Part shown: in pieces, positions 1 to 331 of the stretch
Layout: each line of letters begins with the position of its first letter
Position numbering within the stretch: position 1 is the first letter of the stretch
Virus record (IMG/VR): IMGVR_UViG_2700989519_000005
DNA: 6,313 nt
From: a virus
Lineage: Duplodnaviria; Heunggongvirae; Uroviricota; Caudoviricetes
Reading direction: 5' to 3' (one strand)
Program-made: the position numbers and the translations under genes
Notes under the pieces: model-generated
The model's input: the letters and a program-made list of their open reading frames with translations, nothing else
The model's database searches: none
Told to the model about the DNA's origin: nothing

Positions 1-113
1 CCTTAAAGGGTCAGGGAGAACTCATCTCGGGGCAAGTTTCGTGCTTAGATGCTTTCAGCACTTATCTCTTCCGCATTTAGCTACCGGGCAGTGCCATTGG
101 CATGACAACGAAC
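1..113 (-). rRNA. 23S rRNA fragment (partial 3' region, roughly 105-110 nt; not a complete gene)
   Basis: Reverse complement of 1-108 reads GTTGTCATGCCAATGGCACTGCCCGGTAGCTAAATGCGGAAGAGATAAGTGCTGAAAGCATCTAAGCACGAAACTTGCCCCGAGATGAGTTCTCCCTGACCCTTTAAGG, which I recognise as the enterobacterial 23S rRNA sequence close to its 3' end. The match stops near 109-116 where IS orfA sequence begins. The window starts inside the fragment, so its extent to the left is unknown. Confidence 0.8.
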
Positions 114-331
114 GCCTTACGCAGTTGCAGAATTTCAGATTCCAGTTCAGCCAGCGTGCGGGAACCAGGAGTACCGAGCCCTTTTCTGGCGGCGGTAACC
201 CATTGTCCTAAAGTGCCTTCAGGAAGAGATAATCGGGAAGCGCCTTCACTGATCGAAAGTTGATTTTCAAGAACCGTTCTGACAGCTTCGGCTTTGAACT
301 CTTTAGAGTAACGTTGGGTTTTTCTGCTCAT
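77..331 (-). pseudogene. Truncated IS3-family transposase OrfA (N-terminal HTH part) fused in frame to 23S-derived codons
   Basis: The translation MSRKTQRYSKEFKAEAVRTVLENQLSISEGASRLSLPEGTLGQWV... has the typical IS3-family OrfA N-terminus (HTH DNA-binding region). After ...EILQLRKA the last 11 codons (FVVMPMALPGS) are read from 23S rRNA-derived sequence. The leucine-zipper C-terminus, the frameshift window and orfB are absent. Confidence 0.7.

What the first reader, a model, noticed from the sequence alone, without database searches (positions are those of the whole stretch)
1..125. 23S rRNA 3'-region fragment joined directly to a truncated IS orfA: rearrangement scar or assembly chimera
The IS3-family orfA reading frame runs without interruption into sequence that matches about 105 nt of the 23S rRNA near its 3' end, in the same orientation. 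The switch occurs around 109-116, where GTTCG is shared between both partners (microhomology); the 23S sequence I recall has GTTCGGGTTGTC whereas the window has GTTCGTTGTC. A 23S interior fused to an IS interior is not the product of normal transposition. It implies either an illegitimate, microhomology-mediated deletion between an IS copy and an rrn operon, or a mis-join of two repeat families during assembly. If real, it marks a disrupted rrn operon next to a prophage remnant.
Basis: partly seen in the sequence, partly recalled or inferred. Interest (0 to 1): 0.55.

Follow-up and report, generated by a model that had tools for sequence, protein, structure and literature searches.

The report
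23S tail on Shigella draft contig
The first 109 bases really are 23S rRNA sequence joined to the inside of an IS600 copy, but the join exists only at the end of one draft Shigella flexneri contig. It is most likely a sequencing or assembly chimera and less likely a private rearrangement.

Summary
Window 1-109 is 100% identical to E. coli/Shigella 23S rRNA, about nt 2688-2796, with the rRNA sense on the minus strand. Base 110 belongs to neither partner. Bases 111-395 are the first 285 nt of IS600, in the same orientation. An 84-aa ORF runs from IS600 orfA into the 23S part.

The window is a complete 6313-bp draft contig, LAHY01000253.1 of GCA_001017305.1. It is the usual Shigella flexneri piece of a defective lambdoid prophage, bounded by IS600 on one side and IS911 on the other.

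All ten S. flexneri reference loci examined, six of them from contigs over 4 Mb, match the window exactly through IS600 nt 285. They then continue with a full-length IS600. Only this contig switches to 23S.

The junction was found nowhere else. I checked 5426 complete E. coli genomes, the GTDB species representatives, JGI metagenomes, IMG/VR and a 153-billion-gene index. The junction has no exact microhomology.

Best reading: a chimeric molecule or mis-extension at a contig end (about 0.62). Rival: a real strain-private rearrangement, geometrically an inversion rather than a deletion (about 0.3). Reads are needed to decide. Interest is low.

The parts
1..109 (-). Fragment of 23S rRNA gene sequence, about nt 2688-2796 of a 2898-nt annotated 23S, roughly 100 nt short of the 3' end. 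It is the terminal 109 nt of the contig.
   Evidence: 109/109 identity to annotated 23S rRNA in E. coli genomes. Position and strand come from L015. No Rfam LSU match was reported for this short piece.
110..110 (.). Orphan base at the junction: g on the + strand, c on the - strand. It matches neither 23S (which has g in sense here) nor IS600 (which has a in sense here).
   Evidence: Direct comparison of window, 23S and IS600. The BLAST limits are 1-109 and 111-400.
111..395 (-). IS600 (IS3 family), left inverted repeat to nt 285. The IRL sequence TGAGGTAGCC... starts at base 395 read on the - strand. This stretch carries a base at about window 154 that is specific to the Rz-inserted copy.
   Evidence: 99.7% identity to RefSeq 'IS3-like element IS600 family transposase'. 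100% identity to the Rz-inserted IS600 of S. flexneri genomes. The copy-specific base is shared by 8 of 10 Rz copies and is absent from the other nearby IS600 copies.
77..331 (-). Chimeric 84-aa ORF: IS600 OrfA residues 1-73 followed by 11 residues (FVVMPMALPGS) and a stop codon read from 23S sequence.
   Evidence: ORF list. Pfam HTH_Tnp_1 over residues 3-73. This exact protein is on record on one contig only.
393..797 (-). Rz spanin gene truncated by the IS600 insertion (134 aa). Its stop codon is the TGA of the IS600 terminus.
   Evidence: Pfam Phage_lysis. Rz is intact (468 nt) in the EIEC strain CFSAN029787 prophage. The exact truncated protein is listed in 311 blocks of the assembly collection.
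383..577 (-). Rz1 lipoprotein gene embedded in Rz. Its last residues and its stop codon are supplied by the IS600 end.
   Evidence: Pfam Rz1 and the PHROG family 'Rz-like spanin'.
794..6232 (-). Lambdoid prophage segment. It holds lysozyme R (794-1327), a 209-aa ORF (1393-2022), a class II holin (2026-2241), four tRNAs (2534-2844), Q antiterminator (3044-3424), NinH (3417-3617), an 85-aa ORF, a DnaB-like helicase (3966-5357) and a DnaC/IstB-like ATPase (5354-6232).
   Evidence: Gene calls with Pfam families, tRNAs, and colinearity with annotated prophages.
6253..6313 (+). First 61 nt of IS911 (IRL, TGAAGTGGTCAACAAAAACTGG...). This is the other contig end, which also stops inside a repeat.
   Evidence: Alignment with S. 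flexneri loci, where a complete IS sits at this position. That IS is annotated 'IS3-like element IS911 family transposase' in RefSeq.

Best explanation
The 23S|IS600 junction is most likely not part of the chromosome. The underlying locus is the well-known Shigella flexneri defective lambdoid prophage, in which a full-length IS600 sits in the 3' end of Rz. In short-read drafts this region assembles as a contig of about 6 kb that stops inside IS600 on one side and inside IS911 on the other.

In this one assembly, the contig end inside IS600 was extended by a chimeric molecule or read. That chimera would have formed in vitro between two multi-copy, and therefore over-represented, sequences: IS600 and the seven-copy 23S gene. 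An assembler or gap-closer mis-extension would give the same result. Either way the contig gained a 109-nt 23S tail, and the assembly then stopped because 23S is itself a repeat.

What is shown: the identities, the boundaries, the contig-end position, the uniqueness of the junction, and the full-length IS600 in relatives. What is inferred: that the join arose in vitro or in silico.
For: - The window is the whole contig LAHY01000253.1 (6313 bp) of draft GCA_001017305.1, and the foreign tail is its terminal 109 nt.
- The opposite end also stops 61 nt into a repeat, IS911.
- The Rz::IS600 junction is widespread. It is listed in 311 blocks of assemblies, 194 of them with contigs of only 5-10 kb like this one and 23 with contigs over 1 Mb.
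- In all 10 reference loci shown, plus 7 more places that the tool collapsed as having mostly the same neighbouring genes, IS600 is complete and is followed by Nu1/terminase genes.
- The window is identical to these loci base for base up to IS600 nt 285 and departs only there.
- The junction is absent from 5426 complete E. coli genomes: 0 places cover at least 80% of window 1-400. It is also absent from the GTDB species representatives, JGI metagenomes and IMG/VR.
- The chimeric ORF is on record on a single contig among 153 billion gene positions.
- Exact junction microhomology is 0 nt, with one orphan base. In the Salmonella survey of Sun et al. 2012 (PMC3411829), verified rearrangements had at least 8-12 bp of junction microhomology, the tested candidates with 7-9 bp did not verify, and ligation chimeras formed during library preparation were named as a source of false junction reads.
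- No rrn sequence lies within 10 kb of this prophage in the reference loci.
Against: - No reads were available, so read support for the junction is unknown.
- Most assemblers discard junctions supported by one or two reads.
- The contig carries the base at about window 154 that marks the Rz-inserted IS600 copy, only 44 nt from the junction. The junction sequence is therefore linked to the correct IS600 copy, as a real event would require.
- The imperfect homology around the join (GGCGTTCG versus 23S GGTGTTCG, 7 of 8 with a 2-nt gap) is seen at only 0.4-1.1% of random junctions. A blunt ligation chimera would not be expected to show it. A template-switch artefact or a real microhomology-guided event would.
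- The assembler and sequencing platform could not be identified.
Confidence: 0.62

Rival explanations
1. The junction is a genuine rearrangement private to this S. flexneri isolate. An illegitimate, RecA-independent, nearly homology-free join formed between nt 285 of the Rz-inserted IS600 and about nt 2688 of a 23S gene.

The orientation is IS600 1->285 followed by 23S 2688->3' end. That fits an inversion whose second breakpoint lies in an rrn operon of opposite orientation, for example one spanning the terminus. It would split one of the seven rrn operons. Capture of a short 23S DNA patch during break repair would fit equally well.
For: - The junction is attached to the correct IS600 copy, judged by the copy-specific base at about 154 and the 100% identity from Rz inward.
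- Imperfect microhomology at the join is above chance, at about 0.4-1.1% of random junctions.
- A contig that crosses a 285-nt repeat fragment and then stops inside a long repeat (23S) is what a real junction would yield.
- Shigella genomes are heavily rearranged, and other real interruptions of IS600 orfA nearby recur on many contigs, e.g. ...SEILQL|QPSRKIKH on 85 contigs.
Against: - The junction is seen in one draft contig only.
- All ten reference S. flexneri loci examined have the intact IS600.
- Exact microhomology is 0 nt with an orphan base, below the at least 8-12 bp of experimentally verified spontaneous junctions in Salmonella (PMC3411829).
- The chance that a rare illegitimate event has both breakpoints inside IS600 and 23S is very small. 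Together these make up roughly 1-2% of the genome (my estimate).
- A simple deletion is implausible because no rrn lies within 10 kb. From general knowledge of E. coli/Shigella maps, the nearest rrn operons are hundreds of kb away.
Confidence: 0.3
2. The junction comes from a simple microhomology-mediated deletion between the IS600 copy in Rz and a nearby rrn operon.
For: IS600 and 23S have the same orientation at the junction, as a deletion requires. There is also weak imperfect homology at the join.
Against: - None of the 10 reference loci has any 23S sequence within 10 kb on either side of the prophage. Downstream of IS600 lie the phage terminase, portal and head genes.
- A deletion reaching an rrn operon would have to remove a very large chromosomal segment. 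From general knowledge, that would be hundreds of kb and would include essential genes.
- It also needs an rrn operon downstream in the same orientation, which is not expected on that replichore (inference, not tested on a full S. flexneri map).
Confidence: 0.03
3. The chimera formed at the RNA level and was then copied into DNA. A reverse transcriptase would have switched template between 23S rRNA and the IS600 orfA transcript, and the cDNA would then have recombined into the IS600 copy. Group II intron reverse transcriptases occur in this prophage family.
For: Both partners are joined sense to sense, as an RNA-template switch would give. RVT_1/GIIM genes are present in this prophage region in two S. 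flexneri loci, L005 and L007. 23S rRNA is the most abundant RNA in the cell.
Against: There is no reverse transcriptase gene in this window, no precedent that I know of in enterobacteria, and no independent occurrence. This idea explains nothing that the simpler explanations do not.
Confidence: 0.01

Closest known systems
Chimeric reads or contig-end mis-joins in short-read draft assemblies. Examples are ligation chimeras in library preparation (discussed by Sun et al. 2012, PMC3411829) and microhomology mis-annealing during end repair (MicroSEC paper, PMC8674242).
   Same: The junction is unique to one dataset. It lies in the last ~110 nt of a contig. It joins two unrelated multi-copy sequences, has no exact shared bases, and has one untemplated base.
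   Different: Read support was not examined. The imperfect 7-of-8 homology is not typical of blunt ligation chimeras, and the junction is linked to the correct IS600 copy.
Illegitimate (short-homology or homology-independent) recombination and alternative end-joining in enterobacteria. This comparison draws on my own knowledge plus PMC3411829.
   Same: Two non-homologous sequences are joined with at most a few matching bases. A possible filler base and a small deletion lie at the join.
   Different: Verified spontaneous junctions in Salmonella had at least 8-12 bp of microhomology, whereas this one has 0 exact. There is no independent evidence that the molecule exists in the cell.
IS600 insertion in the Rz gene of the defective lambdoid prophage of Shigella flexneri. 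It is present in complete genomes such as CP012137, CP007037, CP012735 and LR213455.
   Same: Window 111-6252 is this locus, identical through IS600 nt 285. It has the same truncated 134-aa Rz, the same tRNA cluster and the same flanking IS911.
   Different: In the references IS600 is full length and abuts the terminase (Nu1) region. Here it switches to 23S at nt 285.
Inversions and duplications mediated by rrn operons or IS copies through homologous recombination. These are common in E. coli, Shigella and Salmonella.
   Same: The elements involved are an rrn gene and an IS copy. If the junction is real, the outcome would be a large inversion.
   Different: Those events recombine two copies of the same repeat and leave no novel junction sequence. 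Here two different repeat families are joined at interior points.

Membership tests
23S rRNA gene (rrl) | Sequence identity to annotated 23S rRNA | tested here: met
   109/109 identity over window 1-109 to annotated 23S genes.
23S rRNA gene (rrl) | A complete gene of about 2.9 kb within an rrn operon (16S-tRNA-23S-5S) | tested here: not met
   Only 109 nt are present, and the contig ends there. Rfam reported no LSU match. What lies beyond the contig end cannot be seen.
IS600 (IS3 family) | Terminal inverted repeat starting TG, and an orfA with an HTH_Tnp_1 domain, nearly identical to annotated IS600 | tested here: met
   IRL TGAGGTAGCC... at base 395. 99.7-100% identity to IS600. HTH_Tnp_1 at E = 1.4e-20.
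IS600 (IS3 family) | A complete element: orfA, frameshift, orfB (rve domain) and IRR | tested here: not met
   Only nt 1-285 are present in the window. The references have the full element.
Product of normal IS3-family transposition | The junction with foreign DNA lies at an IS terminus, with a 3-bp target duplication | tested here: not met
   The 23S junction is at interior nt 285. Even in the references, the Rz-side and Nu1-side flanks of this IS600 are not a duplicated target.
Microhomology-mediated illegitimate recombination scar | Bases at the junction that can be assigned to both partners (exact microhomology) | tested here: not met
   Exact identities end at base 109 and start at base 111, and base 110 fits neither partner.
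Microhomology-mediated illegitimate recombination scar | Local similarity of the partners around the breakpoint that exceeds chance | tested here: inconclusive
   7 of 8 matches with a 2-nt gap. This occurs at 0.4-1.1% of simulated random junctions, but the criterion was chosen after seeing the data.
Microhomology-mediated illegitimate recombination scar | The junction is present in the cell's DNA (read depth, PCR, or an independent assembly) | not testable with these tools
   No reads are available. The junction is absent from every other collection searched.
Assembly or library chimera | The junction is absent from closely related genomes that share both flanks | tested here: met
   Ten S. 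flexneri loci are identical up to the junction and then continue as IS600. None of 5426 E. coli genomes spans it.
Assembly or library chimera | Located at a contig end and involving repeat families | tested here: met
   The window is the whole contig and the tail is its terminal 109 nt. 23S occurs at a median of 7 places per genome. IS600 is multi-copy: window 1-400, which combines 23S and IS600, matches up to 44 places per genome.
Assembly or library chimera | Little or no read support across the junction | not testable with these tools

The most novel reading that the evidence does not exclude
The junction is real. In that case a Shigella flexneri isolate carries a nearly homology-free inversion or translocation that joins the interior of the Rz-inserted IS600 to the 3' region of a 23S gene. 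It would split one rrn operon and relocate its 23S 3' end and 5S next to a prophage remnant. A still more exotic sub-variant, which I put at about 1%, is a retro-copied chimera of IS600 mRNA and 23S rRNA.
Probability: 0.3. Interest if true: 0.3.

Novelty: not a real feature. Interest (0 to 1): 0.1.

Why it matters
Biologically it matters little. If the junction is an artefact, the value lies in quality control. A draft contig in GenBank ends in a false join, and a fictitious 84-aa 'transposase' with an rRNA-encoded tail has entered protein collections.

If the junction is real, it would be one more private rearrangement in a genome type already known to be highly rearranged. It would be an example of an rrn operon split by illegitimate recombination. 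That is of modest interest for studies of Shigella genome decay and opens no new question.

Tried and rejected
- Rfam scan of the window at E<=1 gave no LSU rRNA match for the 109-nt piece. I assigned it by BLAST to annotated genes instead.
- Exact search for the 37-nt junction returned 0 hits in the GTDB species genomes, JGI metagenomes and IMG/VR.
- A shorter 20-nt junction probe gave one hit, in a Pokkaliibacter coding region. Inspection showed it to be unrelated. By my own calculation, about one such hit is expected by chance in 596 Gb.
- Literature searches for LAHY and neighbouring accession prefixes, meant to reveal the strain, platform and assembler, found nothing.
- I tried to infer the assembler's k-mer size from the two contig-end overhangs, 109 nt in 23S and 61 nt in IS911. 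The two are not consistent with a single k, so I drew no conclusion.
- I considered a de Bruijn mis-join through a shared k-mer and rejected it, because the partners share at most 6-8 imperfect bases.
- I considered a false merge of overlapping read pairs and rejected it, because the overlap is too short and it would not explain the 2-nt gap.
- I considered aberrant transposase cleavage at an internal pseudo-end and rejected it, because IS600 nt 285 shows no end-like (..CA) sequence (seen directly).
- Several fetched loci (L002-L004, L006-L015) did not appear in the Python sandbox, so I made those comparisons with the alignment tool.

Full report
**What the window is.** An exact look-up of the chimeric ORF shows that the 6313-base window is one entire contig, LAHY01000253.1, of the NCBI draft assembly GCA_001017305.1. 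The finding therefore concerns the last ~110 bases of a draft contig. It is not a stretch cut out of a finished chromosome.

**Checking the observation.**
- Window 1-109 is 109/109 identical to annotated 23S rRNA genes in thousands of complete E. coli genomes.
- In the locus around hit H35 this stretch corresponds to nt 2688-2796 of a 2898-nt annotated 23S, about 100 nt from the 3' end. The rRNA sense lies on the window minus strand.
- Window 111-400 matches IS600 at 99.7%.
- Read on the minus strand, IS600 starts with its left inverted repeat TGAGGTAGCC at base 395 and runs to IS600 nt 285 at base 111.
- Base 110 fits neither partner.
- The ORF at 77..331 (-) encodes OrfA residues 1-73, which match HTH_Tnp_1. 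It then adds 11 residues and a stop codon read from 23S sequence.
- Rfam did not report the short rRNA fragment.

**The surroundings.** From about base 396 to base 6252 the contig is a lambdoid prophage segment on the minus strand. In window order it holds:
- Rz, truncated, with the embedded Rz1
- lysozyme R
- a 209-aa ORF of unknown function
- a class II holin
- four tRNAs
- Q antiterminator and NinH
- a DnaB-like helicase and a DnaC/IstB-like ATPase

The last 61 bases (6253-6313) are the left end of IS911. The EIEC strain CFSAN029787 carries the same prophage at about 98.7% identity, with an intact Rz and no IS600.

**The key comparison.** The truncated 134-aa Rz ends in the TGA of the IS600 terminus. 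It is a precise marker of the Rz::IS600 insertion.
- This exact protein is listed in 311 blocks of the assembly collection. Of these, 194 have contigs of only 5-10 kb, like this one, and 23 have contigs over 1 Mb.
- The ten loci returned include complete Shigella flexneri chromosomes, identified as such from my own knowledge of the accessions: CP012137, CP007037, CP012735, CP020339, CP044152, CP044155 and LR213455.
- In every one, IS600 is full length (orfA of 100 aa plus orfB) and is followed by Nu1/terminase and head genes.
- The window is identical to these genomes base for base from Rz through IS600 nt 285 (...CTGCGTAAGGCGTT). The references then continue AAATGAAGCTCGCC..., which is IS600. 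The window instead continues C-GTTGTCATGCC..., which is 23S.

The normal state of this locus is therefore an intact IS600, and the 23S tail is peculiar to this contig.

**Uniqueness of the junction.**
- No place in 5426 complete E. coli genomes covers at least 80% of window 1-400.
- The 37-nt junction sequence is absent from the GTDB species genomes, JGI metagenomes and IMG/VR.
- The chimeric protein is on record on one contig only.
- A 20-nt probe hit one unrelated Pokkaliibacter gene, which is about the number expected by chance.
- No 23S sequence lies within 10 kb of the prophage in any reference locus.

**Anatomy of the junction.** Exact microhomology is zero, and there is one orphan base. 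If a 2-nt gap is allowed, the minus-strand sequence GGCGTTCG aligns with 23S GGTGTTCG(GG) at 7 of 8 positions. In a simulation of random junctions, this much similarity occurred in 0.4-1.1% of cases. That is nominally above chance, but I chose the criterion after seeing the data.

As a benchmark, Sun et al. 2012 (PMC3411829) tested junction reads in Salmonella experimentally. Only junctions with at least 8-12 bp of microhomology verified as real rearrangements. The tested candidates with 7-9 bp did not verify. The authors named ligation chimeras formed during library preparation as a source of false junction reads. Chimeras guided by microhomology during end repair are also documented (PMC8674242 abstract).

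**Evidence pulling the other way.** The contig carries, at about window 154, a base that marks the Rz-inserted IS600 copy. It is present in 8 of the 10 reference Rz copies. Other IS600 copies in the same loci, and the best E. coli copies, have the alternative base. The junction is only 44 nt away from this marker, so the junction sequence is linked to the correct IS600 copy, as a real event would require. In addition, most assemblers discard junctions seen in one or two reads. I could not identify the platform or the assembler. The two contig-end overhangs, 109 nt and 61 nt, do not fit a single k-mer size.

**Mechanism and ranking.**
- Normal IS3-family transposition is excluded, because the join is at an interior position of IS600.
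- A simple deletion to an rrn operon is very unlikely. No rrn operon lies near the prophage, and the deletion would remove the phage late genes plus a very large chromosomal segment (together with general knowledge of E. coli/Shigella maps).
- If the junction is real, the orientation (IS600 1->285 followed by 23S 2688->3' end) is what an inversion with its second breakpoint in an oppositely oriented rrn operon would produce. Capture of a short 23S patch would give the same orientation. These are inferences.
- On prior grounds, a private illegitimate event with both breakpoints inside IS600 and 23S (roughly 1-2% of the genome together) is far rarer than a chimeric join involving these over-represented sequences at the end of a draft contig. 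This is my estimate and was not computed.

My ranking is: artefact about 0.62, real private rearrangement about 0.30, simple deletion about 0.03, exotic RNA-mediated origin about 0.01.

**Comparison with what is known, and verdict.** The locus itself, IS600 in Rz of the S. flexneri defective prophage flanked by IS911, is already present in many public genomes. The 23S tail matches the profile of a contig-end chimera on every feature I could test. One defining feature, read support, could not be tested. It fails the exact-microhomology criterion for a microhomology-mediated scar. Novelty: most likely not a real feature. If it is real, it is a new instance of a known kind of event. Interest is low (0.1). 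The decisive test is read mapping or PCR across 90-130, together with a search of the same assembly for the reciprocal junction.

Noticed in passing
window 6253-6313; L009 3330-4545; L013 about 3300-4560: The other contig end is the first 61 nt of IS911. The adjoining IS911 has opposite orientations in different S. flexneri genomes (L009-type versus L013/L005-type), and different genes lie upstream of it. This points to recombination between IS911 copies that reshuffles the prophage.
   Followed up: partly
L013 10416-11680 and flanks; L003 5900-6020: In S. flexneri the IS600 in Rz has no target-site duplication. Its right end abuts the Nu1/terminase region instead of the rest of Rz. The Rz 3' end and the ParD/RelE and KilA-N genes seen in the EIEC prophage are missing, which indicates an IS600-adjacent deletion.
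   Followed up: partly
window 2534-2844 (-): A cluster of four tRNA genes lies between Q and the holin: Gly-TCC, Thr-TGT, Arg-TCT and a CAT-anticodon tRNA. ARAGORN calls the last one Met, whereas RefSeq annotates it as tRNA-Ile in the related prophages. Rfam also gave spurious antisense 'Plastid-ycf2' matches over these tRNAs.
   Followed up: no
window 1393-2022 (-): A 209-aa ORF sits between the holin and the lysozyme. It has no Pfam match and matches only PHROG families of unknown function (phrog_1085, E = 1e-73). It is conserved in the EIEC and S. flexneri prophages.
   Followed up: partly
L005 6377-7798; L007 2445-3968: Group II intron reverse transcriptase genes (RVT_1 + GIIM) are inserted in this prophage region in some S. 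flexneri genomes. One lies between Q and the holin in L005, where the tRNA cluster lies in the window.
   Followed up: no
IS600 orfA, protein cluster (P0005, P0007, P0009, P0010, P0014): Other truncated IS600 OrfA forms with foreign tails recur on many contigs. Examples are ...SEILQL|QPSRKIKHSEN on 85 contigs and ...ERDIL|NCTGVAEKYA on 13. Real, lineage-wide interruptions of IS600 therefore exist within about 10-40 nt of the position where this contig switches to 23S.
   Followed up: no
window about 154 (within 143-172): A single-base variant distinguishes the Rz-inserted IS600 copy from other IS600 copies. It changes OrfA V60 to L. Two of the ten S. flexneri genomes (L006, L010) carry the common base in the Rz copy, which suggests gene conversion between IS600 copies.
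   Followed up: partly
window 1-12: The contig starts inside the small 23S hairpin GACCCTTTAAGGGTC. In some E. coli genomes the best 23S copy mismatches within window 1-5 (H34), and from memory this helix varies between rrl copies. The contig may therefore stop where the 23S copies diverge.
   Followed up: no
L001 3285-3347 and 2911-3293 (E. coli 90-3040): Some E. coli strains carry an IS600 whose left end has the same 8-nt flank (cccgtccc) next to a truncated 'holin' pseudogene. That IS600 is itself interrupted by another IS3-family element. This may be a related or recurrent insertion in a phage lysis region.
   Followed up: no
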